From an uncultured Clostridia bacterium (GTDB taxonomy: Bacteria > Bacillota > Clostridia > Christensenellales > CAG-314): a stretch of DNA of 64,000 bases. Positions within the stretch are counted from its first letter, which is position 1. Every line of letters starts with the position of its first letter. The stretch is taken from positions 3,267-67,266 of the forward strand of contig CANQNJ010000002.1 in the NCBI GenBank assembly GCA_947625185.1, read 5' to 3'. The notes beneath the pieces were generated by a model, which saw only the letters and a list, made by a program, of their open reading frames with translations, was not told where the DNA came from and did not search any database. The translations under genes were made by a program, and so were the position numbers. Below, piece by piece: positions 14,110-59,274 of this stretch.

Positions 14110-14144
14110 TGAATGCCTCCTTGTTAAAATGGAACCTTGTAGTA

Positions 14145-14173
14145 ATTATAGCATGTATAGCAGAAAATTTCAA
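14145..14173 (-). promoter_or_regulatory. candidate promoter TTGAAA-17-TGcTATAAT for the orphan hipA-like gene
   Basis: The reverse complement reads TTGAAAttttctgctatacatgcTATAAT. Confidence 0.4.
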
Positions 14174-14265
14174 CTGCTCATAAGATTAATTTGATCCGTC
14201 GTCTGTTTGGCGTTTCTAATACGCAATTCTTGGAAAAATAATTTGAATTTTGTGTTGTAAACTAA

Positions 14266-14295
14266 GGAAAAAGTGCCTATACGAAATAGACACTT
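14266..14295 (-). terminator. terminator closing the four-gene ATPase/RloB/KAP operon
   Basis: On the minus strand: AAGTGTCTATttcgtATAGGCACTT followed by TTTTT. Confidence 0.5.
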
Positions 14296-14344
14296 AATAC
14301 TCTGATAAGAACGATAAAATTTAACTTCAGCTTTTTTATATTTT

Positions 14345-17017
14345 CTAACTCACAAGCTTTTTAACATAGCTCTTAAACATACTTTTCCGCCGAGAATTCT
14401 CTTTCCACAAAAGATTATATATATGCATTTTAATTTCGTAATCAGTCAATAATTCATCAAATTGACCATTACACAAATACCTTTGTATGCTATTACTATC
14501 TTCCAATGAATCAATACGTTCGATTTTAAGAATATAATTTTTCCTTTGCTCCATATCTTTACATTGTTCCATAAATGCTTTTAGTAATTCAATGCGCTGC
14601 CCCCAAGTATTGTAAATAAGTAATTGCTGCAGGGACAAACGTTCGAACTTTCGAGCAATGTACACCGCCTCTAAAAACTGCTGACAATTTGACATATAGT
14701 CAAACATTTGGTCTACGGTAACATAAACTAATATATATTCATCAATATCTATCGTTGGATCAAACGAAAATTTATTTTCATATAATGTGCGTCCAACAAT
14801 ATACTGCCAATATTGGTGCCTATTGCGTAATTCAATCGTTATTTGGGGCGGCATGGCTCCACAATAATCGTTATCTATGATAAGATCAATTAATTTATTG
14901 CTCCCAATATTTAATTGGTCTAATAAAGCGATAAACTTCTTAATATATTGGAGACAAGCAGTTCTATCAGTTGTATTTGCAATTTTTTTAATTATCTTTT
15001 CCTCGATCAAAGTAGGCATATCTGATGTAATATCCGCAAATTGAATGAGTTCATCAAATGAAGTAAATTGACAAGTATCTTCATATGATTGTGCAATTTC
15101 TTCCTTTTGAGCCGATTTTAATACATGGTAATCGACTTTTTTAAACGGAATTTTCTTAAACAGCTCTTTCGTATTTTGAGAAGTGTTTTCAAACAAAAAT
15201 TTTGCCAACAAATATGCATCTGTTGCACTTCGGATCAAAAACTGAAAAATTTCACCTGCTTGTGATGGGCTCTGAATCAATCGTGTTATTAAACCGAGAT
15301 CCAGGCAATCCTCTAACGTTATTATTCTTGCTTCCTCTTCAGTTAATATAGCATACTGCGCATCATACAAGAATTTATAAGCCCGTCTTATTTCAATCGA
15401 TTGTTGAATTAGACCAATTCTATATTTAGTAAACAATGATTTGTGTCGACTGAACAACTCATTCATCATTTTACTGTCAAATATACTTACATCATATATA
15501 CGCGTTTCAAAATTATTTAACGTGATGCAATATTGGAGAAAAGTACTATAATATTTCTGTTCATAAAGACTATTGAGTATATTATCATTTATGTTTAAAT
15601 ACCTTTCATAACCTTTTAGGCATTCGCAATACTCCTTACTGATCGGCTCGTCAAGAGAATTTAGATAATTTTCTATTTCCTCATAAATTTCACTTCGGTT
15701 TTTTGATATAAACTTGAAAATTGTATCGTCAACAATTTTATTCAAGGACATCAAAGAAAGTACACCTCGCAACATTTCATCGGTCGGGGCCACAACGGCC
15801 GTATGACGTTTAATCATATCGACTAATTTAACTTTTTGCATCTCAGTCAACTCGGTTTTTGCCTTGTCAGCCAAAGCAACCAACAAAGAATTTGTACATT
15901 TACTTGGCTCAAGCAAATCAAATATTATATTCACATCACTTAAAGCTAATACTTCTTCGCTACTAAGGCAAGGAACGTTGCTATATATAAACATATTCTT
16001 AAACAACAGAATATCATTGCCAAATTTTTGTGTCAATTCAAACCGACATTGAGTGAAATATTCATTAAAATTTGTGGTCTTTTTATACAACTCCTCGGAA
16101 TATTTTTTTAGTAGGTCACACTTACTTGAAAATGCGTAGCTGTAAACTCTAAGTAATGTTTCAACAACGCTTTCGGTATTTTCTTTACTCCAAGGATAAT
16201 TAACAACCATCGTATTAATTATTTGATCGGGATATTTTCTATAACAATATTCTAAAAGGCGTTCATCTTGTAAAATTACAACAGGAAAAGTCTTTTTAAG
16301 TTGCATTAGCTGGTTCATGCAGGCATCGGCAACTTTACATTCACCATCTTCAGAGAAAGACTGCTCTATAATGTTAATAAATTCATTTTCTTCACAACTA
16401 TTTCCAAGCAATAATACATCTTCTAATTTTCGCTCGCCTACATTCTTGATGTAACTACCATTCGGATAACTGAAAAAATACTGTTTGAAATTATCGTCTA
16501 TTATTCTATCGATAATCATACCACTGATTTCTTGCACAAAATCATCCGCTAATTCGAATTCACCAGTGAATACTTCTTTAATGTACTTAACAAGTTTTCC
16601 TATCTTTTCTTCACGTCCGGACGTAGATTCAATTCTCAACAAATTGCCATTATCTACTATTTGCTCAAACTTCTTATCATTATTTACGAGCTTGTAATAA
16701 TTTTGTTTATACTCGCTTTTAAGATATGCAACAGCACAGCATGTTATCATACTGGGGTTTCCCTGCTGATTTTTATACTGTCTTGAACAAATGGTCTTAT
16801 ATAAAACGATAGCATCATTGAGACGATGTTTTAAATCACGAATTGTCAACTTACGACCTTGAATAAGATATGAAAATTGTCCATATATAGAATCAGGTAT
16901 GTTTTTATCTTGTTCGCCTACGGTAAACATTTTTCGTATCTCTTGCTCTTTCTCTTTGAGCAATTCTTGGAGTATTTTTGAAAAATCATCAATATGCACT
17001 GCTTTTAAGTCAAGCAT
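14345..17017 (-). CDS. 890-aa predicted all-helical protein; an in-frame continuation of the upstream KAP NTPase ORF
   Basis: Long AT-rich ORF with no motif I recognise and no RBS. It is in the same frame as 17072..18013 (both start coordinates are 1 mod 3), separated only by a TAA plus 18 sense codons. Confidence 0.6.
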   Translation of the reverse strand: MLDLKAVHIDDFSKILQELLKEKEQEIRKMFTVGEQDKNIPDSIYGQFSYLIQGRKLTIRDLKHRLNDAIVLYKTICSRQYKNQQGNPSMITCCAVAYLKSEYKQNYYKLVNNDKKFEQIVDNGNLLRIESTSGREEKIGKLVKYIKEVFTGEFELADDFVQEISGMIIDRIIDDNFKQYFFSYPNGSYIKNVGERKLEDVLLLGNSCEENEFINIIEQSFSEDGECKVADACMNQLMQLKKTFPVVILQDERLLEYCYRKYPDQIINTMVVNYPWSKENTESVVETLLRVYSYAFSSKCDLLKKYSEELYKKTTNFNEYFTQCRFELTQKFGNDILLFKNMFIYSNVPCLSSEEVLALSDVNIIFDLLEPSKCTNSLLVALADKAKTELTEMQKVKLVDMIKRHTAVVAPTDEMLRGVLSLMSLNKIVDDTIFKFISKNRSEIYEEIENYLNSLDEPISKEYCECLKGYERYLNINDNILNSLYEQKYYSTFLQYCITLNNFETRIYDVSIFDSKMMNELFSRHKSLFTKYRIGLIQQSIEIRRAYKFLYDAQYAILTEEEARIITLEDCLDLGLITRLIQSPSQAGEIFQFLIRSATDAYLLAKFLFENTSQNTKELFKKIPFKKVDYHVLKSAQKEEIAQSYEDTCQFTSFDELIQFADITSDMPTLIEEKIIKKIANTTDRTACLQYIKKFIALLDQLNIGSNKLIDLIIDNDYCGAMPPQITIELRNRHQYWQYIVGRTLYENKFSFDPTIDIDEYILVYVTVDQMFDYMSNCQQFLEAVYIARKFERLSLQQLLIYNTWGQRIELLKAFMEQCKDMEQRKNYILKIERIDSLEDSNSIQRYLCNGQFDELLTDYEIKMHIYNLLWKENSRRKSMFKSYVKKLVS

Positions 17018-17071
17018 ATAATCAAAAAATTTGCTGTAATTTTCGCTTTTACCTGCATTGTCACCATTAGT

Positions 17072-17965
17072 TTAAGCAGTATTACTGCGTTTATCAATGT
17101 CAGGTCTAATTGCTACGATAAAGTGGATTTTTTTATTATCACATGCATTGGAAAGTCTATAAAGTACTTTTATAAAATTATCTATAAGATTCTCCTTCTC
17201 GGCTTTGTCCATTTCTATTCTATCTAAGTCTTCAATCAAAATTATTCTATTTTTACTTTTATTTTTGCAAATTGTATCCACTATTTCTTGATAAATCGAA
17301 AATATATCGCTACTATCTAGTTTTCTATGTCCCTCACTTTTCCATGTGGAAAATGCAACGTTATATTTTTTTAGACCGATAACCAAAAATATAATTGACA
17401 TAGCATAAAATAACGGATATATATCTATCTTTAATAAAAATTGCCATCCATTCCAAATAGTTTCTAAATACGGGATATCCACTGTTGTCATATGGAAAAT
17501 CAATCCAATGACAAAAGATAACAAGGCTAACGATAAAAGCCCCCAGATCTTTTTAGAACTAAAAGTTATGGATAGCAAGCCACTATTACCGCTAAGTCTT
17601 TTATTTACGTATTTTACTAAGTCTCTGTCTTCACTGTTTTTCGCAAGTTGAAATAAAAACGACTTTTCTAACCGTAATTCTTGAGATTCTACATCCTCAT
17701 TGTCTTGTTGTTGCAACCCATCCCACATATTAATTTTAATGGTTTTACCGTACTTATCAGTGTTGGCGGTCAACATACCTACCATGCTTGATTTTCCATA
17801 GCCATAATCGCCAATTAACCCAATCATTTTTGCGCCCGAGTCTATAGCATCGTCCAACGCATCCCTTTGAGCCTGAAAACCAATGTGATCTTGATTTTCT
17901 TCATTGATCTCATGATTAACATACGAATAGCTACTCTTCTGACCATTCTTTTGTTTTTTTACCAT
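17072..17965 (-). CDS. KAP-family P-loop NTPase, N-terminal module with TM helices inserted in the NTPase domain
   Basis: Walker A GDYGYGKSS, then two hydrophobic helices (IWGLLSLALLSFVIGLIF and IYPLFYAMSIIFLVIGL), then Walker B RIILIEDLDR. This matches the KAP architecture. Start moved to ATG 17965, 5 nt after GGAGG. Confidence 0.7.
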   Translation of the reverse strand: MVKKQKNGQKSSYSYVNHEINEENQDHIGFQAQRDALDDAIDSGAKMIGLIGDYGYGKSSMVGMLTANTDKYGKTIKINMWDGLQQQDNEDVESQELRLEKSFLFQLAKNSEDRDLVKYVNKRLSGNSGLLSITFSSKKIWGLLSLALLSFVIGLIFHMTTVDIPYLETIWNGWQFLLKIDIYPLFYAMSIIFLVIGLKKYNVAFSTWKSEGHRKLDSSDIFSIYQEIVDTICKNKSKNRIILIEDLDRIEMDKAEKENLIDNFIKVLYRLSNACDNKKIHFIVAIRPDIDKRSNTA

Positions 17966-18009
17966 TCTATCCTCCGTACAATAATTGTTGAAACTGTTTT
18001 TTTTAGAAT

Positions 18010-18639
18010 TCACCTCTCAATTATTTTATTGATATTGCAAATCCACTTAGAATTGCCAGACTCCAACGCATTGAATAATTGCAAAACGTTGCTACTTGGC
18101 ACAAAGGTGTATGTATCTTTCAACCGCACCAAACGTCGTTTCATTTCCGCGTAATTTTGCGATGTAATTTTATTTACGATTGCCTTGCGTTGCTGTTCAG
18201 TTGCGTTATAATCTTTCACGCCCGTCAATCGCTCCACCGTTGCAGCGTTATCAGTTTTGCTATTGGAGATCAATTTGACCGCATCGAAATGCAGCAACAC
18301 CACTTGCAACGTACAAGGATTGACGAAGAATACAACTTGATCCGCTACACCTTTATCGTGAAATTTATCTATCTTTTGTTTCATTGCAACAAACTGGTTA
18401 TACGGATACTTTTCGGTATCGCAAAAAATCACAATCAACTTGTAGTTGTTTGTTTTATAGTAATATGAGTACATCGCAGAGATATTGCTTATAGATTTGG
18501 CATCTTTTGTATGAACCGAAAAATTTTTGCTCCACACACCGCAAGCTTTCAATCGATTGATATAGTCGCATTCCTCTGCACCCTCACATACGATAAGAAC
18601 ATTATTCTCATTGCTCGCGTTAGGTAATTTGTTCGCCAT
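18010..18639 (-). CDS. RloB-like / TOPRIM-like protein (AbiLii-like)
   Basis: N-terminal NVLIVCEGAEECDYINRL resembles the RloB signature (hhhhCEGxxxExxY), and VIFCDTEKY is a later acidic patch. Start at ATG 18639, 1 nt after the stop of the ATPase gene. The stop overlaps the long-ORF GTG of the next gene. Confidence 0.6.
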   Translation of the reverse strand: MANKLPNASNENNVLIVCEGAEECDYINRLKACGVWSKNFSVHTKDAKSISNISAMYSYYYKTNNYKLIVIFCDTEKYPYNQFVAMKQKIDKFHDKGVADQVVFFVNPCTLQVVLLHFDAVKLISNSKTDNAATVERLTGVKDYNATEQQRKAIVNKITSQNYAEMKRRLVRLKDTYTFVPSSNVLQLFNALESGNSKWICNINKIIER

Positions 18640-18640
18640 T

Positions 18641-19936
18641 TCAATTACCCCCGTTACTTCTTGTGTCACTCAAAAGTATGGATATCATATCGGGTTCCGG
18701 TAGCGCCCCCAACACCCCCGAATTATATCTATCAAACACATCTGTTTCCGAACGAATTTTATCTTCTTTTGCAGTAAACTCCGCTAATGAATATAGGTAT
18801 TCATTTTCGCTATCTTTGGATGCAAACCAAATTTGATCTTTACGGAATAATTTTTTACAATCTAACAATGTCGCATCGTGCGCTGTAAATATCAACTGCG
18901 CTTTTACATTCAATTCATTGTTAAACAATGCAACAATAGCTCGTGTAAGTCTGAAATGCAAACTGCTGTCCAATGCATCTACTACAAGAGTTTTTCCTTC
19001 ATCTAATGCTTCTACAATATAACTCGCAATTGACACAATCTTTTTCGTCCCGGTTGAATCAAAAGAAAAACTTTGCACCGATTTACCCTTATGAACAGAT
19101 GTCAACCGCAACATATCTCCAATAGCTACTTTTAATTTGAGAACCTCCTCTCTTGGATTGGGGGCTTCTTCCTCATTGGTAATACCTATTGCTCCGGACT
19201 TTGAACTATCTGCATAATATAGAAAATCATCTATATCCAAATCTGCAAGACGAATAAGCTCCACGGTTTTTTCTTTAATTTTTTCATTATTCTTCAAAAC
19301 ATCAATTGTTCTGTTGATTGGTATATTATTCATATCAAGTACCGTGATACTATCTGCGAATTTACGCAAAATATCTTTATATTCGCCTATCTTAGAAAGA
19401 ATAGAAGTATTTACTGTATATATTAGAATATTATCATTTGACACAAGACTTAAAATTTTGCTTAATTCATCATCCTCATGAAAACGATAAATACCATTTA
19501 TAACATCTCGTATAAACAATTCTTTAATTGAAATGTTCTTATGAGATTCAAACGTCAGCTCTTTTAAGCACTCATATACAAAGCCTCTTTTATAACCGTT
19601 CAAAAGCGTAGAATCATATTTAAAATCATATTCAAATACTCTATCGCATTCCATGAATGTTACGCCAAATGAGCATACTTTGTCATTTCTGAATATATTT
19701 GACGGCACCTCGGCAACTAAACCAAGTAACACATTCTTTATGGAGTTAATTGCACGAACAAGGCAAGTCTTGCCGGAATTGTTTGCACCGTAAACACAAA
19801 GGGATTTCAACACGTTAAAACCCATATTTTCATACACGTTATCTGCAAATCTCTTTATCCGCATATCTGCAATCAAAGATAATTCCACATCATTAGAGTA
19901 AACCAAAAAATTGTCAACACGGACTTTTATTAGCAT
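18641..19936 (-). CDS. AAA_15/AAA_21-type (ABC-like) ATPase (AbiLi/RloA-like)
   Basis: Walker A GANNSGKT, signature-like FDSTGTKKIVSIASYI, Walker B TLVVDALDSSLH and H-loop FTAHD. Confidence 0.8.
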   Translation of the reverse strand: MLIKVRVDNFLVYSNDVELSLIADMRIKRFADNVYENMGFNVLKSLCVYGANNSGKTCLVRAINSIKNVLLGLVAEVPSNIFRNDKVCSFGVTFMECDRVFEYDFKYDSTLLNGYKRGFVYECLKELTFESHKNISIKELFIRDVINGIYRFHEDDELSKILSLVSNDNILIYTVNTSILSKIGEYKDILRKFADSITVLDMNNIPINRTIDVLKNNEKIKEKTVELIRLADLDIDDFLYYADSSKSGAIGITNEEEAPNPREEVLKLKVAIGDMLRLTSVHKGKSVQSFSFDSTGTKKIVSIASYIVEALDEGKTLVVDALDSSLHFRLTRAIVALFNNELNVKAQLIFTAHDATLLDCKKLFRKDQIWFASKDSENEYLYSLAEFTAKEDKIRSETDVFDRYNSGVLGALPEPDMISILLSDTRSNGGN

Positions 19937-19990
19937 ATCTTTACTTGCTCCTTTTTATTTTCAATATATAGTATAGCATAGCAATATTTT

Positions 19991-20011
19991 TTGTGCAAGT
20001 TTTTTGCACAA
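19991..20011. promoter_or_regulatory. perfect 8-bp-arm palindrome TTGTGCAA-n5-TTGCACAA in the divergent promoter region
   Basis: Seen between the ATPase operon start (19936) and the SpeE-like gene start (20174). Possibly an operator. Confidence 0.3.
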
Positions 20012-20173
20012 TTTCCACAAACAAATTATGCCAACTTTATCATCAAATAAAACCACTATTCTAAAATTAACTTTATAATTTTTTTACGATACATAAACCA
20101 ATTTGTGTAGCGTCAGTATACCTACAATAACTCTTTATTATTTTATGCAAATGATACGAGAGGAGAATGTGTT

Positions 20174-21022
20174 TTGTTTTACTATGAAAAAGAACCTATA
20201 AGCATTTATTTGCAAAATTTGGAAAAACTTGCGACAATAAATTCTTCCAAACAAACCATTGAACTGTTTAACCATATTTACCTAGGTAAAGTGTTAATAA
20301 TCAACGGTGAGATACAACACATTGAAAAGTACCAATCCCTATATCATGAAATGCTTGTTCATTTGCCAATAGCTTTTATCCCAAATGTTAAAAATGTCCT
20401 TATAATAGGGGGAGGGTCGTTGTTTGCCGCCTTTGAAGCATTAAAATACTCTTCTGTTGAAAGTGTTACTTTGTGCGACCATGATCATTATGTTTTAGAT
20501 TTAATGGCAAAGTATTATTCACACGCGAAGTATGTTCTTCAGTCCCCAAAGTTTATGTTAATAGAAAAAGATGCTCATGATTTTTTGATTGAAGATTTCG
20601 GTACATATGATTTAATAATTAATGACTGCTTTAATTTAGCGATGGAGGGCAAGAGAAAAAAAATTTCATATTATAATATTTTATCTTCGCATCTAACTCC
20701 GACAGGAGCATGTTCCGATATTACATATAGGCATATTTTCGATGAAGCGACTATGCAACTTACATTGGAGCAGGTGTCTCGCGAATCGTATAGGGCTTAT
20801 TCATTGGTGACTGTACCAGAATATCCCGGAATTTTACATCTCCAAGTAATATGGGGGAAGTCTGATAAAATTCGCTCAGACATTTCCATACCTGTAAACG
20901 ATATACAGCGAGATGGTATTATGAAGAAAAAGCCTTTTAATACAGAGTTCTATATGCCCTCATGCTTGCCTTACTATTTACATATTCCAAACTATGTAAA
21001 AAAACTATTTAATAAAATTTGA
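20174..21022 (+). CDS. spermidine synthase-like (SpeE-fold) protein, divergent
   Basis: YHEMLVHLPIAFIPNVKNVLIIGGGSLFAAFEALKY...VTLCDHD...YDLIINDCFN parallels SpeE, but GGGDGG is replaced by GGGSLF and DSTDP by NDCFN. TTG start 7 nt after GAGAGGAGAA. Confidence 0.6.
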   Translation: MFYYEKEPISIYLQNLEKLATINSSKQTIELFNHIYLGKVLIINGEIQHIEKYQSLYHEMLVHLPIAFIPNVKNVLIIGGGSLFAAFEALKYSSVESVTLCDHDHYVLDLMAKYYSHAKYVLQSPKFMLIEKDAHDFLIEDFGTYDLIINDCFNLAMEGKRKKISYYNILSSHLTPTGACSDITYRHIFDEATMQLTLEQVSRESYRAYSLVTVPEYPGILHLQVIWGKSDKIRSDISIPVNDIQRDGIMKKKPFNTEFYMPSCLPYYLHIPNYVKKLFNKI

Positions 21023-21862
21023 GGTAAAACTTAGTTCTTCTGAGGGACACTTGATTGCATCATAGAATACCTCAACATTCTTCCAAAGTGGAGACCTTAA
21101 AATTTTGTCGTTACATCTTGTCAGCTCCTCTTTATTGTTAATATATCCATATTGAACAATAAATGGTTCTTTCGGGTGGTTTGTTGCTGCCCAAGGAGAA
21201 CCCAGAAGCGAACAATTTGACCGATCATTATTTCTATAGAGCTGAATTTTATTGATTTTTATATAAGGAATACTTTTATAATTATCTGTCTCTAAATTGA
21301 TGCCTGCCGCAAGAAACATACTTCGAGCAATATGGCTATGCTGCGTGGGACAATAAGACAACGTACCCTTTAACCTTACTGGACATCCAAAAAAATCCTC
21401 ATTAAAGAAATGTGGGATTTCCTTTAAAAGATATTGGGTGGGAATTACTCCTAAAATCCCTTCTCCGATATATCCATATCGAGCATAAATTCCTACTAAG
21501 GTTTCTCCATTAAGTGACCCTGTGCGGATTGTGTCATCGGACCCAGCATAGAATTCCAATTTACTATATTGCTGTGAAGTGATCTTCCCTTCAAAGTCAT
21601 AAAGTGTATTCCACCTTTTTCCGTTTTCAAACGGATTGCGGGGAAACAACTGTATATACGGCGACAGAAGACCATCTAATGCCAATGAAGCGCCTTCACC
21701 GATCATTTTTTGATCTATTCCCCTAAACCAAAGATCCATAGGACCCTCGTAAGTGTTTTCCTTAAAGTATTTTTCATATATTTTTTTCCCAAAATATGAT
21801 CCCAAGGCTCCCACAAAAGTTTGGCCGGCGGCTATGAGCAAAGAAAGAATATTTGAATCCAT
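21005..21862 (-). CDS. hypothetical protein with an N-terminal TM helix
   Basis: 285 aa counted from ATG 21862 (GGAGA RBS). No recognisable motif. Its 3' end overlaps the 3' end of the convergent SpeE-like gene by 18 bp. Confidence 0.5.
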   Translation of the reverse strand: MDSNILSLLIAAGQTFVGALGSYFGKKIYEKYFKENTYEGPMDLWFRGIDQKMIGEGASLALDGLLSPYIQLFPRNPFENGKRWNTLYDFEGKITSQQYSKLEFYAGSDDTIRTGSLNGETLVGIYARYGYIGEGILGVIPTQYLLKEIPHFFNEDFFGCPVRLKGTLSYCPTQHSHIARSMFLAAGINLETDNYKSIPYIKINKIQLYRNNDRSNCSLLGSPWAATNHPKEPFIVQYGYINNKEELTRCNDKILRSPLWKNVEVFYDAIKCPSEELSFTSNFIK

Positions 21863-21953
21863 ATCATCTCCCAATAATAATAAAGAGTTATTGTAATTAT
21901 TTTACCATATTTTTCCGTGCTTTTCAACCTAATATGACAAAAAATTACATCCC

Positions 21954-23042
21954 TCAAATAACATTTTTGATCAATTCTACAATATCTGCCGTCTTCCACT
22001 TTGCGAGTCCGACATAGGCTGCAAGGTCGAGAAGATCTTTTTCTGTGGGGGTTGGGTTCCCCATCACGGTCATTTCATGTTCGGACTTGTTAATAGTTTT
22101 CGTCAAATCGTATGCAGGAGATAATCTGTATCCGTTGAGAGTCTCACCGTATACAAAAGAAAAATTTTTTCCGTGGTCGTCCTTGTTGCCGTACAACACA
22201 TTGAACGCCATGCGAGCAAAAGCTTCGTATAGGTCGCTCTTATCTGCGCAGATGTTTTGAACCACTTGAAAGAGATGCACATAGTCCAGGTTGGGAATTC
22301 TATGCGTCGTTTCCAAAATGGACGACAAAGAAACGACATGTATTCTCTTGCCAGCTTTGCGATCAAAACGTTTTGCACCAAAATAACCCGCACAACGCTT
22401 TGACGGAAACAATTTGAATTCGTTTACATCCAGTCCACACCTTTGAGCTGCGGAATTTGCTTCAAATTCGGCAAGCCCCGCATCCGGTGGGTCGATTCGA
22501 CACGGAAATTTGACGATCCAATCTTCGCCATCCACTTTTATGTGCGCTTTGGGACGCGCTCCACCACTTGAACCGCCCAACAAAAACAAGCTATCCAACT
22601 CGTCAATCGGCTTTGCGTCATTCAAAACAGCGTTTGCTTCTTCCGCAAGCTCTTCCAAGTCGAAGTGGGAGTCATCTGCTTCCGTCGCTTGCGTCGGTTC
22701 ATAGGTCAAGCCACCAAGTCCGTTTTCGCCAATGAGAGACAGCTTGGTGAGCGGATTGAGCCTATCGTAGTTTACGCCCTTTTGCGCAAGCATACGCTTG
22801 ACCAACAACTCACCCCATCCATCGGGGAGCGAGTCGTGAAAAACGCCGTATAGCCCTTCAAAATTATACTTTCGGTTAATGTAAATTTTGTCGGCAATGG
22901 GGAGCGAAAAAGGGGATATGGAAAACCCGTTTCGCTGCCACTCGTCGCTGTATTGAAAGGCAATTCCTTCGTTCGTCATTGCAAGATAGCCGACCGTTCG
23001 ACCGTTATATTTAACAATGGATTTAGTAACTTCACCGACCAT
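21954..23042 (-). CDS. hipA: HipA family serine/threonine kinase toxin
   Basis: GGSSGGARPKAHI (P-loop) and YGNKDDHGKNFSF (catalytic D-x-H-x-K-N). Start set at MVGEVTK (23042), overlapping the hipB stop by 11 nt. Confidence 0.85.
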   Translation of the reverse strand: MVGEVTKSIVKYNGRTVGYLAMTNEGIAFQYSDEWQRNGFSISPFSLPIADKIYINRKYNFEGLYGVFHDSLPDGWGELLVKRMLAQKGVNYDRLNPLTKLSLIGENGLGGLTYEPTQATEADDSHFDLEELAEEANAVLNDAKPIDELDSLFLLGGSSGGARPKAHIKVDGEDWIVKFPCRIDPPDAGLAEFEANSAAQRCGLDVNEFKLFPSKRCAGYFGAKRFDRKAGKRIHVVSLSSILETTHRIPNLDYVHLFQVVQNICADKSDLYEAFARMAFNVLYGNKDDHGKNFSFVYGETLNGYRLSPAYDLTKTINKSEHEMTVMGNPTPTEKDLLDLAAYVGLAKWKTADIVELIKNVI

Positions 23043-23325
23043 TTTTGTAATCCTTGACGCTGGTAATAATCTCGTGTTTGAAAAGTTCTTCAAAATCCGC
23101 AAGACAACCAATGGCATTTGCAAGCTTGACAAGCGAATGTAACGAAATCTCCCCCGTCTGTTCAAACCTGCGAATTGAAGAATAAGTAACCCCCGAACAT
23201 TTCGCAAGCTTTACCTGAGAAAGTTTCATCTCCTTTCGTCTCATTCTGAACCGTGCCGCCAAATTGTCTAACGTTGTTTTTTCTGTCAGCGTGGGGATAA
23301 ATTCCCCTATATCAAATTTGTTCAT
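23032..23325 (-). CDS. hipB: XRE/HipB-type HTH antitoxin
   Basis: 97 aa. LSQVKLAKCSGVTYSSIRRFEQTGEISLHSLVKLANAIG is an HTH_3 motif. It lies immediately upstream of hipA and overlaps it. Confidence 0.8.
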   Translation of the reverse strand: MNKFDIGEFIPTLTEKTTLDNLAARFRMRRKEMKLSQVKLAKCSGVTYSSIRRFEQTGEISLHSLVKLANAIGCLADFEELFKHEIITSVKDYKNGR

Positions 23326-28928: not shown

Positions 28929-30740
28929 TCAACCGTTTGACAGCAACTCCGAGACAACTTTGCTTACACTGTCTCGATCAAGCCCCGATTCCGACAGTTG
29001 CTCGTCAACAGTGGCGTGCTTGACGTAACGGTCGTCAACTCCGAGGCAACAGACGTTCACGCATGCGGAGCGTTGGGCAAAATAAGTCCTTACGCTTTCT
29101 CCGAAACCGCCGCGCAACACATTTTCTTCCAATGTAACAACAGCGGACTGAGCCGTTTGTATTTTTTGCAAAATCTCAATGTCCAATGTCTTTACAGTAG
29201 TAACTTCTACCGCCGCAACGCCGTCCGTCGATGACGCGACGTTCAACGCCGTTTCCGACAACTTGGCTCCGACAGCCAACAAGTAAACTTTGGGATGAGG
29301 CGAATCGACGAGCAAGTTCCACTTACCGTCAAATTCACGAGCCTCGTCCAGCAAATATCGGGAATATCTTATCGCAACGGGGCAGTTTTCGTCGAGGGAC
29401 CTTTCTATCATTATCGACAATTGTTTGTATGTTGCGGGAGTCCATATTTTGATATTTGGGATCTGCGACAAATAGGACAAGTCAAATAATCCCTGATGCG
29501 TTTTGCCGTCCTCGCCGACAAATCCCGCTCTGTCTATCAAAAAAGTCACGGGGAGATTCTGCAATGCGACGTCGTGCAATATCTGATCGTAGGCGCGCTG
29601 CAAGAAAGAGGAATATATCGCAACAAAAGGACGCGAGCCGCCCTTTGCAAGCCCCGCGGCAAACGTTACCGCGTGTTCTTCCGCGATCCCCACATCGTAA
29701 AACCGCGAAGGATAGCGTTCCTCTATCGGCGTCAACCCCGTTGCCTTGGACATCGCCGCACAGACCGCGACTGCGTCGCCGCGCCGTCGGAAAATTTCCG
29801 TCAGGGCGTCCCCGACTACCGCAGAACTTTCAATCGCACCTACGGCGGTTCCTTCTCTTGCAACGGAATGATAACGTTCCGGGTCCTCTTCCGCGGGCGG
29901 ATATCCTTTGCCCTTCTTGGTGACGATCTGCATCACCGTCGGTTTGATAACGTTATTTTTCAATTTGGTAAAATAGTATACCAGATCTTTTATCTCGTTG
30001 CCGTCGATAATGCCTATATATTTCAAATCGAAGTTGTCGAAATAGCTGTTACGCACATAGCCCAACTTTGCGCGGCGCTTGCACCACCGCAGAAATTTGT
30101 AAGTAGGCTTGCCTACCAAGGGTATTTTCATCAAAAAACGTTTCAGCCGTTCCTTGTTGCGGTCATACTTTCCTACGCGCAGCTTGGACATATTGAGCGT
30201 TGCCGAACCGACATTCTTGCCTATGGACATATTGTTGTCGTTCAATACAATGAGGATATCCGTGTCTTTGACATTGTTAAGCGCTTCGTAAGTCATTCCG
30301 CAAGTCATCGAACCGTCGCCGACCACCGCGATCACCTTGTATTTTTCTCCCAATGTATCGCGTGCTTTCGCCAACCCCAATGCGGCGGATATCGCCGTAC
30401 CTGCGTGCCCCGTATTGAAACAATCGCGTTCGTCCTCTTCGCAATCGGGAAAACCGCTTATGCCGTTTTTTTGGCGTAACGAAGAAAAATTCTCACCCCG
30501 CGAGGTAAGAATTTTGTGAACGTAACTTTGATGTCCAACGTCCCATACGATCTTGTCGCTCTCGTCAAAAACGTAATGAAGAGCAACCGTAAGCTCCACA
30601 ACGCCCAGATTGCTTGCCAAATGTCCGCCGCTTTTACTCACGTCGGCGATAAGTTTGACGCGAATTTCTTCGCATAGCTCCGGCAATTGCTTAACGCTCA
30701 ACTTTTTGAGATCTTGTATTGTCTTAATTTGTTCCAGCAC
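28929..30740 (-). CDS. dxs: 1-deoxy-D-xylulose-5-phosphate synthase
   Basis: 603 aa. GGHLASNLGVVELTVALHYVF, the TPP motif VVGDGSMTCGMTYEALNN, and GEDGKTHQG. Confidence 0.92.
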   Translation of the reverse strand: MLEQIKTIQDLKKLSVKQLPELCEEIRVKLIADVSKSGGHLASNLGVVELTVALHYVFDESDKIVWDVGHQSYVHKILTSRGENFSSLRQKNGISGFPDCEEDERDCFNTGHAGTAISAALGLAKARDTLGEKYKVIAVVGDGSMTCGMTYEALNNVKDTDILIVLNDNNMSIGKNVGSATLNMSKLRVGKYDRNKERLKRFLMKIPLVGKPTYKFLRWCKRRAKLGYVRNSYFDNFDLKYIGIIDGNEIKDLVYYFTKLKNNVIKPTVMQIVTKKGKGYPPAEEDPERYHSVAREGTAVGAIESSAVVGDALTEIFRRRGDAVAVCAAMSKATGLTPIEERYPSRFYDVGIAEEHAVTFAAGLAKGGSRPFVAIYSSFLQRAYDQILHDVALQNLPVTFLIDRAGFVGEDGKTHQGLFDLSYLSQIPNIKIWTPATYKQLSIMIERSLDENCPVAIRYSRYLLDEAREFDGKWNLLVDSPHPKVYLLAVGAKLSETALNVASSTDGVAAVEVTTVKTLDIEILQKIQTAQSAVVTLEENVLRGGFGESVRTYFAQRSACVNVCCLGVDDRYVKHATVDEQLSESGLDRDSVSKVVSELLSNG

Positions 30741-30741
30741 G

Positions 30742-31404
30742 TTATCCTTCCCTGCGGAAAATACTCAAAGCTTTTGCAACTCCCAATATGATTCCGTTCG
30801 CTTTCTTTACCGCAATATTTTTGCCCAACGCCTTGAATGTGATAGTCAATGTGGAAATAACCGAATAAATCAGTACTTTTATTACCAGATTCCAGGCAAC
30901 GGACAAACCCAATCCGTCTATTGCTTCGGACGCCAACGCGGCGCCGCACACACCGGATACGATACCGCAGATGTCTCCCACGATATCGCAACATACCGAG
31001 GAAACTATGTCCCTCTTTTGAGCAAGGCGCACTGCCATCTTACCGCCGCGCACCTTGCGGCTTGCCATAGAGTGAAACGGACCTATGTCGCACGCGGTCG
31101 CCGCAGTGCCTACGATATCGAATACGACGCCGAGCAACAATATTGCCACGGTCAATATCGTCGCCAACCACCATTGGGAATCGGTAAGCATCAGTTCCGA
31201 ACCCGTATTGACCGCTGCCGCGATGAGCAACGTTATAAAAAACGCTTTCAGCGGCCAAAGGTTGCGTTTCTTCTTTTTTTTGTCGTTTTTGTCGCGTTCT
31301 TTGCGTTTGATATCTACCGAAGTATCTTCTTGCCGCTCCTCTTCCGCGAAAAGGGTCGTCTCCGCGTCAACGGTACTTCGGGGGACTGAATCGGAATTTT
31401 TCAT
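30742..31404 (-). CDS. oapA: OLE-associated membrane protein A candidate
   Basis: 220 aa: a charged N-terminus then about 4 TM helices, with duplicated motifs FDIVGTAATACD and CDIVGDICGIVSG. It sits between the large ncRNA and dxs, as described for oapA. Confidence 0.6.
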   Translation of the reverse strand: MKNSDSVPRSTVDAETTLFAEEERQEDTSVDIKRKERDKNDKKKKKRNLWPLKAFFITLLIAAAVNTGSELMLTDSQWWLATILTVAILLLGVVFDIVGTAATACDIGPFHSMASRKVRGGKMAVRLAQKRDIVSSVCCDIVGDICGIVSGVCGAALASEAIDGLGLSVAWNLVIKVLIYSVISTLTITFKALGKNIAVKKANGIILGVAKALSIFRREG

Positions 31405-31464
31405 ATATCTCCATTATAAAATGCAATCAGCGACAAATTTGTCACCGATTTGACGATCGAGTAA

Positions 31465-32085
31465 TAAAAAAAGGTGGTGACTTATCGGATAAACCTTACG
31501 GCATAGGTTCAGTAGGTTTTCCCAAGCAAGAACTCCCCGTCGCCGAAGAAGCAGTTTCCTCTTAGTCTTGCCTGTGCAGCATCACTGCTTGCACAACTGA
31601 ATCGCCACTTAGTCCGTACTATAATCTCCGATAAGCCTGATTTGCAGTCTAGAAGATTTCCTTTGCAGTAATCGACGTATTTTAGTTTCTTTTGCAGAAT
31701 TCATTTCGTAAAGCATTCGCACGCGTCTCATAGGCCAACGAAACGCGCCGTTCAGTACTCCCAAAATTCCACTCAAAACAAGCTACACTGTACACAGCTT
31801 TTATTCACCGCATAGCAGGTTTAACCTCAGAGAGTAATTGCTTATCTATTAGGCAACCACCCCGTAGAGTCTCCACGACTAATGGGGATAGAGCGTATGC
31901 CATTACACCTTACCCACTAATCTTAACTTCCAGCACCTGCCCCCGTTTGGGCAACGAAAGCAAGCACAAGAAACTTCATCGTTGTGCTCGGCGGCGGTCT
32001 TTTAGTCCCGCCTTCAACACGCCGATTTCTGACTAGAATACTGCACCACCAAATTTTATTTAGTTGTAATGAGTTTTCACTCGAC
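31465..32085 (-). ncRNA. ole: OLE (ornate, large, extremophilic) RNA candidate
   Basis: About 0.6 kb with no ORF, between ispA and the oapA-like gene. The 5' GGTGGTG (reverse complement of 32044-32050) pairs with the 3' CACCACC (31473-31480), followed by a T-run. Many internal stems. The synteny is identical to published OLE loci. Confidence 0.7.
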
Positions 32086-32089
32086 ACAC

Positions 32090-32118
32090 ATTATAGCACA
32101 AAATCGTCGAAAATGCAA
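32090..32118 (-). promoter_or_regulatory. candidate promoter TTGCAT-17-TGcTATAAT upstream of the OLE RNA
   Basis: The reverse complement reads TTGCATtttcgacgattttgtgcTATAAT. Confidence 0.4.
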
Positions 32119-32153: not shown

Positions 32154-32963
32154 CTACCTCCGACGGGCGATATTTTGATCGCAAAACTCTTTGAGGAATT
32201 CCAGATCGTAAGGCAATTTGTCGCACGCCGCCTTTATTTCCTCGTTGAGTTCCTTCACATGGTCGATCAGATCACTTTCGGAATAGACGTCGAGAAATGA
32301 CTTCTCGCATTTTTTGGAATCGAGTATGTCGTCGACAATTTGATAACACACGCCCAACTTGCAAGCAATTTCGTCAAATATTCTCGCTTCTTCCTCGCTT
32401 GCGCCGCCGACCAACGCTCCGCATACCAATGCCGCGCGGATAAGTGTGCCCGTCTTGGCGATGGCAAGTTCCGTAGCGTCGTCGATATTCTTTGTCTCGC
32501 CGAACAGATCCAACGACTGACCGTGAACCAAGCCCTCGATACCGCTCATTTTGAACATATAAACGCACGCTGTTTGGTAACTTTTGTTGGAAAGAGGACC
32601 TTTCAGGACCGTTTCAAAGGACAAATTAAGCAATGCGTCTCCCGCAAGGACCGCCGACGCCTCTCCGAATTGCATATGACACGAACGTTTGCCGCGACGC
32701 ATATCGTCGTTGTCCATACAGGGCAGGTCGTCGTGGATCAACGAATACGTGTGAATAAATTCCAACGCCACAGCCAGATTTTTGGCACCGTCGCTTATGC
32801 GTTTGCCCACCGCTTTGGCGGTATTCAACAACAGCATCGGACGAAAACGCTTGCCGCCGCTGAACAGCATATATTCCATTGCCTGCAATACTTTGTCGCG
32901 TTCTCTGGGCAGACGCTCCTTAATAAGTTCGTCGATATAACTGACGGTAATATTAGTTTTCAT
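32154..32963 (-). CDS. ispA: farnesyl diphosphate synthase (polyprenyl synthetase family)
   Basis: First Asp-rich motif HDDLPCMDNDDMRRG and second Asp-rich motif QIVDDILD. Confidence 0.85.
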   Translation of the reverse strand: MKTNITVSYIDELIKERLPRERDKVLQAMEYMLFSGGKRFRPMLLLNTAKAVGKRISDGAKNLAVALEFIHTYSLIHDDLPCMDNDDMRRGKRSCHMQFGEASAVLAGDALLNLSFETVLKGPLSNKSYQTACVYMFKMSGIEGLVHGQSLDLFGETKNIDDATELAIAKTGTLIRAALVCGALVGGASEEEARIFDEIACKLGVCYQIVDDILDSKKCEKSFLDVYSESDLIDHVKELNEEIKAACDKLPYDLEFLKEFCDQNIARRR

Positions 32964-50225: not shown

Positions 50226-50527
50226 TATTTATCCTCCCGAGGCACATACATCAAATTTTCCATAATTGCGTCGGCTAACGATTTGTCGCAGATAGCCACC
50301 GCTTTACAATTTTTCTTTTGCAATGTTTCGTAATCCTCTATGAGCAACAGCGGACAATGCAAACGTTCGCTTACTCCTCGCAGAGTAGAAAGAGAATTGT
50401 CGGATAACGTCGGCGTGTACAATATTGCTCGCATATGTCTTTTGCTGACCTTTATCCCGTCGCAGCCGTATACCGCGGCGCCTTTCTTTATTGCAAAACC
50501 TATATATGTCTGTATTTTATCGTTCAA
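50225..50527 (-). CDS. ylxQ: L7Ae-family RNA-binding protein (YlxQ-like)
   Basis: 100 aa, positioned between ylxR and infB as in Bacillus. Confidence 0.7.
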
Positions 50528-58601: not shown

Positions 58602-59274
58602 TGATTCCTCCAAAATTGCGCGTACGCTTGCCGTATTCTTCGATAATGGCATCGTACTCTTCGTTTGTAAAGTCGGGCCAGAGCGTATCGGAAAACACAA
58701 GCTCGGAGTAGGCGCTTTGAAACAGCAAGAAATTCGACAAACGTTTCTGTCCGCCCGTGCGAATGATCAGATCGGGATCGGGCAAACGTTGGTACAAATT
58801 GTTTCGTATGTTATCGACAGTTATATCTTTACCCTGCTTGACGAGCTTGTTGACCGCGTCAACGATCTCCGTTTGTCCGCCGTAATTTATGCAGAGATTT
58901 ACGCAGATCGCGTTGAAATCCTTGGTGCGTTCTTCCGTATAGGATATCTTATTCGCCAGATTCTGCGGTAATCCGTCTTTTTCTCCGGAAACGACAACGC
59001 GCACTCTGTCCTTACAGAAATCATCGAAACGACTGAGATATCTGTCGGCAAGCGCAAAAAGATTGTTGATCTCCGATTGCGGACGTTTCCAATTTTCGGT
59101 GGAAAAGACATACAATGAGAGGTATTTGATACCCACTGCGAGCGAATGGTCTATCACTCGCTCCGCCACATCGAGTCCGCGTTTATGACCGTGTAAGCGC
59201 GCCAAGCCCCTTTGCTTGGCCCAACGGCCGTTTCCGTCCATAATAAAAGCAACGTGATTGGGGATATTCATCAA
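58588..59274 (-). CDS. uppS: isoprenyl transferase (undecaprenyl diphosphate synthase)
   Basis: HVAFIMDGNGRWAK, FSTENWKRP and LIIRTGGQKRLSNFLLFQSAYSEL. Confidence 0.9.
   Translation of the reverse strand: MMNIPNHVAFIMDGNGRWAKQRGLARLHGHKRGLDVAERVIDHSLAVGIKYLSLYVFSTENWKRPQSEINNLFALADRYLSRFDDFCKDRVRVVVSGEKDGLPQNLANKISYTEERTKDFNAICVNLCINYGGQTEIVDAVNKLVKQGKDITVDNIRNNLYQRLPDPDLIIRTGGQKRLSNFLLFQSAYSELVFSDTLWPDFTNEEYDAIIEEYGKRTRNFGGINGIK

What the first reader, a model, noticed from the sequence alone, without database searches (positions are those of the whole stretch)
30742..32118. OLE-class large non-coding RNA with its OapA-like membrane partner between ispA and dxs
Between the ispA stop (32154) and a 220-aa four-TM protein (31404) lies about 0.6 kb with no ORF but dense helices. 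The minus-strand 5' GGTGGTG pairs with the 3' CACCACC just before a T-run, and CTTATCGG pairs with CCGATAAG. A TTGCAT-17-TGcTATAAT promoter lies upstream. The gene order asp23-nusB-folD-xseA-xseB-ispA-[RNA]-[TM protein]-dxs-argR-recN is the context published for OLE RNA and oapA in Bacillus halodurans and other anaerobic or extremophilic Firmicutes. The OapA candidate carries two copies of D-I-V-G-[T/D]. A conserved DxxxD motif was reported for OapA, as far as I recall (to be verified). OLE is a known class, but the biochemical role of its RNP is still incompletely understood. An instance in a spore-forming commensal-like genome is worth recording.
Basis: partly seen in the sequence, partly recalled or inferred. 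Interest (0 to 1): 0.65.

Follow-up and report, generated by a model that had tools for sequence, protein, structure and literature searches.

The report
OLE RNA gene with OapA partner
This stretch holds a full-length copy of the known large bacterial non-coding RNA "OLE" and the gene for its membrane-protein partner OapA, in an uncultured spore-forming gut bacterium from rabbit; the call is correct, but it is one more member of a well-described class.

Summary
Rfam's OLE model (RF01071) matches window 32065..31458 (minus strand) over its full length at 444.7 bits (threshold 50). Across 66 related loci, 86% of the model's base-pair cells hold and 129 of 160 pairs show compensatory changes. The TTGCAT-17-TGcTATAAT promoter is present and conserved in the closest relatives.

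The 220-aa protein immediately downstream is an OapA:
- It aligns with a published OapA sequence (BLASTP E 2e-21; profile probability 99.95%).
- It carries the family's DxxxD motif (D140/D144, conserved in its relatives here) and four hydrophobic helices.
- It has a lysine-rich tract before the first helix.
- Its predicted fold best matches CNNM/CorB magnesium-transporter domains.
- In 78 of 80 genomes with a homologue, an OLE gene lies directly upstream.

RNA-seq assemblies hold parts of the RNA at high depth and nothing from the neighbouring genes.

The host is an uncultured Clostridia species from rabbit gut. OLE RNAs were already catalogued in thousands of Bacillota, gut anaerobes included, so this is a new member of a known kind. 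OapB and OapC were not found in the window.

The parts
32090..32118 (-). Proximal sigma-A-type promoter of ole: -35 TTGCAT (32118..32113), 17-nt spacer, extended -10 TGcTATAAT (32098..32090)
   Evidence: Read. The scan gives 10/12 matches with a TG. Conserved in relatives L001, L002, L004, L005, L006. An own proximal promoter is published for H. halodurans ole (PMC3413148).
32071..32082 (-). Short 5'-leader hairpin GAGU-GAAA-ACUC at the predicted transcript start, followed by ACAACUAAAUAAAA before P1
   Evidence: the six closest loci keep a hairpin here with different sequences (covariation by eye, 7 sequences). Function (5' stabiliser) is inferred only.
31466..32050 (-). OLE RNA proper, 585 nt from the 5' strand of P1 to the end of the U-run (the Rfam hit including flanks is 32065..31458)
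   Evidence: RF01071, 444.7 bits, E 2.7e-127, model 1-616/616, not truncated. MFE z-score -4.76. 86% of cells paired and 129/160 pairs with compensatory change on a MAFFT alignment of 66 homologues.
32044..32050 (-). P1, 5' strand GGUGGUG
   Evidence: Pairs with 31479..31473; covariation.
31473..31479 (-). P1, 3' strand CACCACC
32033..32044 (-). 5' strands of long-range helices GCAG and UCUAG (P2-like; contain the palindrome CUAG). Partners are CUAGA/CUGC at 31652..31644
   Evidence: Not in the Rfam model. 97-100% paired in 66 sequences, one C-G/U-A switch at 26:26. The name P2 is my inference from the text of PMC12265935.
32020..32031 (-). 5' strand of the P3/P3.1-like helix CAGAAAUCGGCG. Its partner is CGUCGAUUACUG at 31677..31666 (11 bp plus one A-A)
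   Evidence: all 11 pairs change on both sides; 68% of cells are paired in an alignment not fitted to structure. The length agrees with the 'typically 12 bp' stated for P3+P3.1 in PMC12265935.
31974..31981 (-). Conserved CGAUGAAG (J4a/5, k-turn strand, the published OapC site)
   Evidence: Aligned to upper-case consensus; nearly invariant. Role taken from PMC9723947 and PMC12286853.
31869..31877 (-). Conserved CGUGGAGAC (J6/7)
   Evidence: The cryo-EM study places the k-turn partner strand here (PMC12286853).
31733..31736 (-). Palindromic GGCC in the terminal loop of the long P9 arm (published kissing-loop dimer contact L9.3)
   Evidence: consensus GGCC; at least 90% conserved. Role from PMC12286853.
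31574..31594 (-). P13 hairpin GUGCA-A-GCA GUGA UGC UGCAC: GNRA tetraloop plus a single-nucleotide bulge, the published OapB site
   Evidence: alignment; helices 18/19 covary. Requirement stated in PMC7936274.
31466..31472 (-). U7 run directly after P1 (terminator-like end of the RNA)
   Evidence: A U-tract of at least 6 follows P1 in 23 of 66 homologues. Termination itself is not shown.
31425..31450 (-). Hairpin in the 61-nt spacer between ole and oapA
   Evidence: Terminator-like hit. No promoter-like site was found in the spacer on this strand.
30742..31404 (-). oapA, 220 aa: N-terminal polar tail with KKKKKR (residues 42-47) and four hydrophobic helices (about 49-73, 78-104, 132-159, 164-193). 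RBS GGAG at 31412..31409
30973..30987 (-). Codons of D140-I-V-G-D144, the OapA DxxxD motif
   Evidence: D140 is invariant and D144 at least 90% conserved. Aligns with NDVIGD of the published OapA sequence. Corresponds to D100/D104, mutated in PM1 (PMC9723947).
31105..31119 (-). Codons of D96-I-V-G-T100, the first DIVG copy in helix 2
   Evidence: D96 is invariant across the 45-member family alignment.
32154..32963 (-). ispA (farnesyl-diphosphate synthase family), upstream neighbour; no terminator before the ole promoter
28929..30740 (-). dxs; its GTG start lies 1 nt after the oapA stop codon
   Evidence: TIGR00204, 580 bits; sequence.

Best explanation
The locus is a full-length ole gene and its oapA partner, in an uncultured spore-forming Clostridia species from rabbit gut.

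Shown here:
- The RNA matches the curated OLE model end to end, and its helices covary.
- It has its own strong promoter, conserved in close relatives.
- Parts of it are present at high depth in RNA-seq assemblies that hold nothing from the flanking genes.
- The protein belongs to the family that sits directly downstream of OLE in almost every genome that has it. It carries the DxxxD motif and is predicted to have a CNNM-like four-helix membrane fold.

Inferred from work on Halalkalibacterium halodurans and two Clostridium species:
- The RNA is made in large amounts and is very stable.
- It dimerises, partly through the GGCC loop.
- It is held at the membrane by OapA dimers bound near P2 and P4a.
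- It recruits small RNA-binding proteins: OapB at the P13 GNRA loop with its bulge, and OapC at the k-turn.
- The particle helps the cell cope with stresses such as excess Mg2+, alcohols, cold and poor carbon sources, probably by controlling divalent-cation handling through the transporter-like OapA.

Inferred for this locus:
- Most transcripts from the ole promoter end at P1 plus the U-run.
- A minority, together with transcripts coming from ispA, read through to supply oapA and the tightly abutting dxs. No promoter is seen between ole and oapA.
For: RNA:
- RF01071, 444.7 bits, full length.
- 86.1% of cells paired against 39-46% for slid controls; 129/160 pairs with compensatory change.
- the long-range helices P1, P2-like and P3-like covary.
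- promoter present and conserved.
- RNA run X10 holds contigs 100% identical to 31602..31912 at word depth 500-2800, with depth 0 over ispA, oapA and dxs. Runs X15, X16, X21 and X24 also hold OLE pieces.

Protein:
- BLASTP E 2e-21 (32% identity over 174 aa) and hhalign probability 99.95% (E 3.5e-38) to the OapA sequence in Supplementary Table 4 of PMC12286853.
- D96 and D140 invariant, D144 at least 90% conserved.
- AF2 model with pLDDT 84; its six best PDB matches are all CNNM/CorB/CorC (7M1T, 7M1U, 7CFF, 7CFG). 7M1U is the hit published for H. halodurans OapA (PMC11332333).
- sub-threshold Pfam CNNM hit (18.5 bits), as published for OapA.
- four hydrophobic segments.
- a K/R-rich tract before helix 1 is common across the family (at least 5 K/R in an 8-residue window in 32 of 45 members).

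Linkage and context:
- 79 of 80 genome loci with a homologue also hold an OLE match, 78 of them directly upstream on the same strand; dxs is usually downstream.
- sporulation genes in the window.
- rabbit gut origin.
Against: - Nothing here shows binding, membrane localisation or phenotype.
- Neither OapB (YbzG) nor OapC (YbxF) nor bS21 is in the 64-kb window. The rest of the genome could not be searched.
- RNA evidence comes from assembled contigs only. They give no strand and no transcript ends, and they cover only about nt 154-464 of this exact sequence.
- A small hairpin of the Rfam model (positions 423-434) is missing.
- 13 of 154 model pairs are non-canonical in this copy.
- The OapA sequence used for comparison was machine-read from a PDF, and its species is not stated in the text I read.
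Confidence: 0.93

Rival explanations
1. The 0.6-kb element acts mainly in cis, as a giant structured leader or attenuator that sets how much transcription reaches oapA and the essential MEP-pathway gene dxs, rather than as a free ribonucleoprotein RNA.
For: No promoter-like site lies between the U-run and oapA. oapA and dxs are 1 nt apart. The closing helix P1 is followed directly by U7. A U-tract follows P1 in 23 of 66 homologues.
Against: 43 of 66 homologues lack the U-tract yet keep the whole RNA. About 600 nt of conserved, covarying structure far exceeds what an attenuator needs. The RNA accumulates far above its neighbours in RNA-seq assemblies. Published work shows a stable, membrane-bound RNP (PMC3413148, PMC12265935). 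At most this is an added role, not a replacement.
Confidence: 0.1
2. The 220-aa protein is just a short CorB/MpfA-type Mg2+/Co2+ transporter (as some database entries name its relatives), and its position next to the RNA is incidental.
For: Two relatives are named 'Mg2+ and Co2+ transporter CorB' by their source. There is a weak Pfam CNNM hit. The best structural matches are CorB/CorC.
Against: It lacks the CBS pair and the CorC/HlyC domain (220 aa). It scores below the CNNM threshold (18.5 against 28.4 bits). It has the DxxxD motif, which CNNM domains lack according to PMC11332333. In 78 of 80 genomes the homologue lies directly behind an OLE gene.
Confidence: 0.03
3. The RNA gene is a decaying, non-functional copy.
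For: One small hairpin of the model is missing, and 13 model pairs are non-canonical in this copy.
Against: The match is full length at 444.7 bits. Nearly all family-invariant nucleotides are kept. The promoter is conserved. The RNA is detected at high depth. The partner gene is intact, and OapA is 81% identical in the nearest species.
Confidence: 0.02

Closest known systems
OLE RNA (Rfam RF01071), the 'full-length' type as in Halalkalibacterium halodurans, Clostridium acetobutylicum and C. botulinum
   Same: End-to-end model match. The same conserved blocks are present: CAGUAUUCUAGUCAG, CGAUGAAG, CGUGGAGAC, the GGCC loop, GGACUAAGUGG, and the GUGA and GCGA tetraloops. It has long-range P1/P2/P3-like helices, its own proximal promoter, oapA directly downstream, and a length of 585 nt (C. 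acetobutylicum 577 nt; H. halodurans construct 637 nt).
   Different: The small hairpin at model positions 423-434 is absent. A leader of about 33 nt with a short hairpin lies between the predicted start and P1 in this clade. A U7 run follows P1. I did not see the exact anti-Shine-Dalgarno mimic CCUCC in the 3' strand of P6 (it reads UCCCCAUUAG); I did not analyse this further.
[quoted passage not shown]
   Same: Host is an uncultured gut member of Bacillota; oapA is downstream.
   Different: The arms I take to be P7, P8 and P9 align with the Rfam consensus without major deletion (one 4-nt gap in P9). The P13 GNRA loop and bulge are kept. So the copy is not of the reduced types.
OapA (BH2780 of H. 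halodurans; CLB_RS09010 of C. botulinum)
   Same: Position behind ole, four helices, DxxxD motif, lysine-rich cytoplasmic tract, CNNM-like predicted fold, about 21-24 kDa.
   Different: About 32% identity to the published sequence compared here. It has a roughly 48-residue polar N-terminal tail starting MKNxDSVPR, which is conserved only in its own clade. The lysine tract lies before helix 1, whereas the published sequence has it at the C-terminal end.
MpfA/CorB/CorC CNNM-family Mg2+ transporters (PDB 7M1T, 7M1U, 7CFG)
   Same: Similar transmembrane fold (TM-score 0.47 by query length, 0.60 by target length; Foldseek probability about 1.0).
   Different: No CBS pair and no CorC/HlyC domain. 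Four helices rather than three. DxxxD is present. Sequence similarity is below the Pfam threshold.

Membership tests
OLE RNA (RF01071) | Significant match to the curated covariance model over its full length | tested here: met
   444.7 bits against a gathering score of 50, E 2.7e-127, model 1-616/616, no truncation.
OLE RNA (RF01071) | Ornate multi-helix secondary structure supported by covariation | tested here: met
   160 pairs projected on a MAFFT alignment of 66 loci: 86.1% paired (slid controls 39-46%), 129 pairs with compensatory change. P1, P2-like and P3-like helices.
OLE RNA (RF01071) | Gene lies directly upstream of oapA on the same strand | tested here: met
   61-nt spacer (31465..31405). 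The same arrangement is seen in 78 of 80 related loci.
OLE RNA (RF01071) | OapB site: GNRA tetraloop and single-nucleotide bulge in P13 | tested here: met
   GUGCA-A-GCA-GUGA-UGCUGCAC at 31594..31574. Present at the sequence level only; no binding was tested.
OLE RNA (RF01071) | K-turn-forming nucleotides (J4a/5 with J5/6 or J6/7) for OapC | tested here: inconclusive
   The conserved strands CGAUGAAG, GUUAAG and CGUGGAGAC are present. K-turn geometry cannot be tested with these tools.
OLE RNA (RF01071) | Palindromic loop for RNA dimerisation (L9.3 GGCC/GAUC/AGCU) | tested here: met
   GGCC at 31736..31733 in the terminal loop of the long arm. Dimerisation itself is not testable here.
OLE RNA (RF01071) | Abundant, stable transcript | tested here: inconclusive
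   RNA-seq contigs identical to 31602..31912 at word depth 500-2800, with none on the neighbours. These are contigs only: partial coverage, no strand, no ends.
OLE RNA (RF01071) | Membrane localisation in an RNP with OapA, OapB and OapC | not testable with these tools
   Needs biochemistry or imaging. oapB and oapC were not found in the window, and the genome was not available.
OLE RNA (RF01071) | Host in Bacillota, typically an anaerobe or extremophile | tested here: met
   spoIIIA operon and SpoIVB in the window. The nearest loci are Clostridia MAGs, and the DNA is found in rabbit gut metagenomes.
OapA | Sequence homology to a published OapA | tested here: met
   BLASTP E 2e-21; hhalign probability 99.95%, E 3.5e-38. 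Caveat: the reference sequence was machine-read from a supplement PDF.
OapA | DxxxD motif in a transmembrane helix (D100/D104 in H. halodurans) | tested here: met
   D140-IVG-D144. D140 invariant, D144 at least 90% conserved. Aligned with DVIGD of the published sequence.
OapA | Four transmembrane helices | tested here: met
   Hydropathy segments 49-73, 75-108, 132-159, 164-193. AF2 helices 50-75, 78-104, 131-163, 169-200. No dedicated topology predictor was run.
OapA | CNNM-like fold without CBS or CorC domains | tested here: met
   The top six PDB matches are CorB/CorC. Pfam CNNM at 18.5 bits, below threshold, and no other domain.
OapA | Cluster of positive charges on the cytoplasmic face | tested here: met
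   KRKERDKNDKKKKKRN before helix 1; a K/R-rich tract there is common in the family (at least 5 K/R in 8 residues in 32 of 45 members). The sidedness is assumed, not tested.
OapA | Lacks the conserved proline of CNNM domains | not tested
   The protein's prolines are at 8, 51 and 109. I made no alignment to CNNM to locate the relevant column.
OapA | Cooperative binding of OLE RNA (at least 2:1) | not testable with these tools
   Needs purified components.
MpfA/CorB (CNNM Mg2+ transporters) | CNNM domain above the Pfam threshold, plus a CBS pair and a CorC/HlyC domain | tested here: not met
   18.5 bits against the 28.4 cutoff; no CBS or CorC hit; 220 aa.

The most novel reading that the evidence does not exclude
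In this clade the whole RNA may double as its own terminator. The 5' strand of P1, transcribed about 540 nt earlier, must be free to pair with CACCACC for the U7 run to stop the polymerase. If so, the folding state or protein occupancy of the newly made OLE RNA would decide how much transcription continues into oapA and the essential dxs gene. That would be a feedback loop tying the particle's assembly to the supply of its membrane partner and to isoprenoid synthesis.
Probability: 0.12. Interest if true: 0.5.

Novelty: new member of a known kind. Interest (0 to 1): 0.25.

Why it matters
OLE is one of the largest conserved bacterial non-coding RNAs whose biochemical function is still unknown. 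Current proposals hold that it spans the membrane and acts as a master stress regulator. This copy adds no new principle.

It does have some modest uses:
- It is a clean, full-length, apparently highly expressed example from a mammalian gut spore-former, outside the extremophile and Clostridium models.
- oapA abuts dxs with a 1-nt gap, and a U-run follows the closing helix. That makes the locus a convenient case for asking how oapA-dxs expression is coupled to OLE transcription.
- The 66-locus alignment built here gives independent covariation support for the long-range helices P1, P2 and P3, which the Rfam model does not contain. P3 is the proposed membrane-spanning stem.

Tried and rejected
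- Pfam and NCBIfam at default thresholds gave nothing for the 220-aa protein. A PDB sequence search gave only noise. Homology therefore had to be shown through a published sequence, genome linkage and fold.
- I could not obtain BH2780 itself. The one genome-contig scan returned only the 80 best loci, all of them uncultured gut lineages or Neopoerus. Puerta-Fernandez 2006 and Block 2011 are not held. The OapA-binding palindromes and the B. halodurans gene order were therefore not re-read.
- I searched the window for OapC and bS21 by tblastn, and scanned eleven of its small ORFs (65-132 aa) with Pfam and/or NCBIfam. There is no KOW protein and no bS21. The only lead is a very weak L7Ae-family signal for the ORF upstream of infB.
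- I looked for a promoter of oapA's own in the 61-nt spacer and found none convincing (by eye: TATAAT at 31418..31413 has no usable -35 and no TG).
- I tested whether an A-tract before P1 goes with a U-tract after it. It does not: 11/23 against 21/43.
- I considered that the RNA-seq coverage limited to OLE nt 154-464 reflects processing that removes the 5' and 3' domains. I rejected this as unsupported. The contigs are heavily fragmented (60-nt pieces). Other OLE variants in the same run share the conserved ends. At 90% identity a variant's 3'-domain contig has similar depth.
- No raw-read RNA runs were available, so transcript ends and strand could not be determined.
Full report
OBSERVATION

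The region was read on the minus strand. Between the stop of a polyprenyl-synthase gene (32154) and the start of a 220-aa ORF (31404) lie 749 nt that hold only two mechanical 54-55-aa ORFs.
- TTGCAT (32118..32113), 17 nt, TGcTATAAT (32098..32090).
- GGTGGTG (32050..32044) and its complement CACCACC (31479..31473).
- A T7 run directly after CACCACC (31472..31466).
- CTTATCGG and CCGATAAG.

The consensus scan finds the promoter with 10 of 12 matches and a TG.

THE RNA

A scan of the whole window against Rfam 15 gives a single hit. It is OLE (RF01071) at 32065..31458 on the minus strand, 444.7 bits against a gathering score of 50, E 2.7e-127, covering model positions 1-616 without truncation. The strand alone folds better than every one of 20 shuffles (z = -4.76).

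To test the structure independently of the Rfam seed, I collected 80 loci from one-genome-per-species contigs through the neighbouring protein. I then found their OLE copies with nhmmer and aligned 65 full-length copies with the window by MAFFT. I projected the Rfam structure of the window copy onto that alignment, which is not fitted to any structure. The result was 86.1% of 10,352 cells forming standard pairs, against 39-46% when partners are slid by 1-3 columns. 129 of 160 pairs show changes on both sides.

The CTTATCGG/CCGATAAG helix is the outer helix of the 3' domain. It is 96% paired, and all ten pairs counted show compensatory changes.

Published text also refers to a P1 stem at the 5' end of the RNA (PMC3413148).

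Two further long-range helices, suggested by the minimum-energy fold, also hold up:
- GCAG/CUGC plus UCUAG/CUAGA, 97-100% paired.
- CAGAAAUCGGCG/CGUCGAUUACUG, 11 bp plus an A-A, with all pairs changing on both sides.

From the descriptions in PMC12265935 (domain 2 = P1, P2, P10-P15; P3+P3.1 'typically 12 bp') I take these to be P2 and P3/P3.1. That naming is my inference, because the figures are not held.

Functional landmarks known from the literature are present at the sequence level:
- The P13 hairpin with a GUGA tetraloop and a one-nucleotide bulge (the OapB site, PMC7936274).
- A second GCGA loop.
- The strands CGAUGAAG and CGUGGAGAC that form the k-turn (PMC9723947, PMC12286853).
- The palindromic GGCC loop used as a kissing contact in the cryo-EM dimer (PMC12286853).

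The arms I take to be P7, P8 and P9 align without large deletions. The copy therefore belongs to the 'full-length' type, not to the reduced variants described for TANB77 and RF39 gut lineages (PMC11332333). One small, poorly conserved hairpin (model 423-434) is missing.

EXPRESSION

The exact sequence occurs in rabbit gut metagenomes. Only assembled contigs of RNA runs were available.

In run X10, contigs 100% identical to 31602..31912 have word depths of 500-2800. At the same time ispA, oapA and dxs have depth 0. Four other RNA runs hold OLE pieces at 92-99% identity.

This fits the high abundance and roughly 3-h half-life reported for H. halodurans OLE (PMC3413148). It remains weak evidence: there is no strand information, there are no transcript ends, and coverage of this exact sequence is limited to nt 154-464. 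I attribute the limited coverage to assembly fragmentation among several OLE variants in the sample, not to processing.

THE PROTEIN

The 220-aa ORF has no hit above threshold in Pfam or NCBIfam. It has a sub-threshold CNNM hit (18.5 bits), which is the behaviour published for OapA (PMC11332333).

It has 663 relatives at E <= 0.001 in the clustered protein collection, and 923 representative clusters in the exhaustive search.

A published OapA sequence (Supplementary Table 4 of PMC12286853) aligns with it at BLASTP E 2e-21, 32% identity over 174 residues. It aligns with the family profile at 99.95% probability. DIVGD of the window protein aligns with DVIGD of the published sequence.

D140 is invariant and D144 at least 90% conserved in a 45-member alignment averaging 32% column identity. 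This is the DxxxD motif whose D100A/D104A mutation gives the dominant-negative PM1 phenotype (PMC9723947). The first DIVG copy (D96) is invariant as well.

Hydropathy gives four segments. The AlphaFold2 model (pLDDT 84) has matching helices. Its six best PDB matches are all CNNM/CorB/CorC transmembrane domains, including 7M1U, the entry reported as the top match for H. halodurans OapA (PMC11332333). A lysine-rich tract precedes helix 1, a common feature of the family.

The strongest single argument is linkage. 79 of 80 species-level loci with a homologue also hold an OLE match. In 78 of them it lies immediately upstream on the same strand, in one it lies about 1.8 kb upstream, and one locus has none. 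dxs usually follows, and ispA-xseB-xseA often precede.

CONTEXT AND HOST

Pfam and NCBIfam confirm asp23, nusB, folD, xseA, xseB, ispA, dxs, argR and recN. SpoIVB, SpoIIIAA and SpoIIIAE are also present. This is the B. subtilis spoIIIA-to-spoIVB synteny with ole-oapA inserted between ispA and dxs; the B. subtilis order is from my own knowledge.

The nearest species representative is a rabbit MAG labelled uncultured Clostridia, with OapA 81% identical. The finer lineage was not resolved.

HOW IT PROBABLY WORKS

Shown: identity, structure, promoter, linkage, and presence in RNA.

Inferred from the model organisms: a stable, abundant RNA that dimerises, is anchored at the membrane by OapA, binds OapB and OapC, and contributes to tolerance of Mg2+, alcohol, cold and carbon-source stress. 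OapA probably acts as a regulated divalent-cation transporter-like subunit.

Inferred for this locus:
- There is no terminator between ispA and the ole promoter, and no promoter between the U-run and oapA.
- dxs starts 1 nt after the oapA stop.
- oapA-dxs mRNA must therefore arise by read-through of the OLE 3' end.
- The P1+U7 arrangement would then act as a partial terminator or a processing boundary. This was not tested.

COMPARISON AND NOVELTY

The element meets every sequence-level defining feature of OLE and OapA that could be tested. Features that need biochemistry are untested.

OLE RNAs were already reported in 2,822 Bacillota genomes of GTDB R214, including uncultured gut lineages, and were found to correlate with sporulation genes (PMC11332333). 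The find is therefore a new member of a known kind.

Minor clade-specific traits:
- A leader of about 33 nt with a small covarying hairpin.
- The U7 run.
- The missing small hairpin.
- A conserved MKNxDSVPR N-terminal tail on OapA.

VERDICT

Observation confirmed and interpretation supported. Confidence in the identification is 0.93. Interest is low to moderate (0.25), because a specialist would not be surprised.

Noticed in passing
window 32071-32082 (-) and 32051-32070 (-): Between the -10 box and P1 lies a leader of about 33 nt. It has a 4-bp GNRA hairpin (GAGU-GAAA-ACUC) followed by ACAACUAAAUAAAA. The six closest loci keep a hairpin at this place with different sequences. Oscillospiraceae loci instead have the -10 box about 10 nt before P1.
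   Followed up: partly
window 30738-30744 (-): The oapA stop TAA and the dxs GTG start are separated by one nucleotide, and no promoter-like site lies between ole and oapA. An essential MEP-pathway gene therefore appears to depend on transcription passing through, or starting at, the OLE gene.
   Followed up: partly
window 31638-31645 (-): The small hairpin at Rfam model positions 423-434 (between CUAGACUG and the 3' domain) is deleted in this copy and its close relatives.
   Followed up: no
window 50225-50527 (-): A 100-aa ORF lies directly upstream of infB, the position of ylxQ in B. subtilis. It has only a very weak full-length resemblance to the L7Ae family (NCBIfam NF004078, E 0.0087, 16 bits) and no Pfam hit. 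It may be a divergent k-turn-binding protein of the family that includes OapC/YbxF.
   Followed up: partly
window 31602-31912: In RNA run X10 the contigs identical to the window cover only OLE nt 154-464 at depth 500-2800, and Illumina adapter sequence is joined at 31602 and 31612. The conserved 5' and 3' parts are missing at 97% identity or more. This is probably assembly fragmentation, but it is not proven.
   Followed up: partly
window 12970-23207: A block with two HipA-like kinase genes (12970-14109, 21954-23207), an AAA_21 ATPase (18641-19936), a YobI-like P-loop NTPase (17072-18013) and an 890-aa protein without Pfam hits (14345-17017). It looks like a toxin/defence island.
   Followed up: no
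window 55196-58700 (-): A second cluster linked to isoprenoid and membrane synthesis: rseP-like M50 protease, dxr and cdsA. It lies 25 kb from ispA-ole-oapA-dxs.
   Followed up: no
L063, L012, L032, L071, L073 (flanks of P1): In many Oscillospiraceae loci P1 is extended by 7-8 further complementary, covarying base pairs outside the core (for example GCUAAGC/GCUUAGC). The closing helix is therefore often about 15 bp long.
   Followed up: partly
L035 and L041: Two 'Bacilli' MAG loci from rabbit have an OapA homologue but no adjacent OLE by nhmmer. L035 has none; L041 has a fragment 1.8 kb upstream. They may carry very divergent or reduced OLE variants, or reflect assembly problems.
   Followed up: no
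window 30742-31404 (-), residues 1-48: The OapA of this clade has a conserved MKNxDSVPR start and a low-complexity acidic/polar tail before the KKKKK tract. The published OapA sequence has no such tail and carries its lysine tract at the C-terminus.
   Followed up: partly
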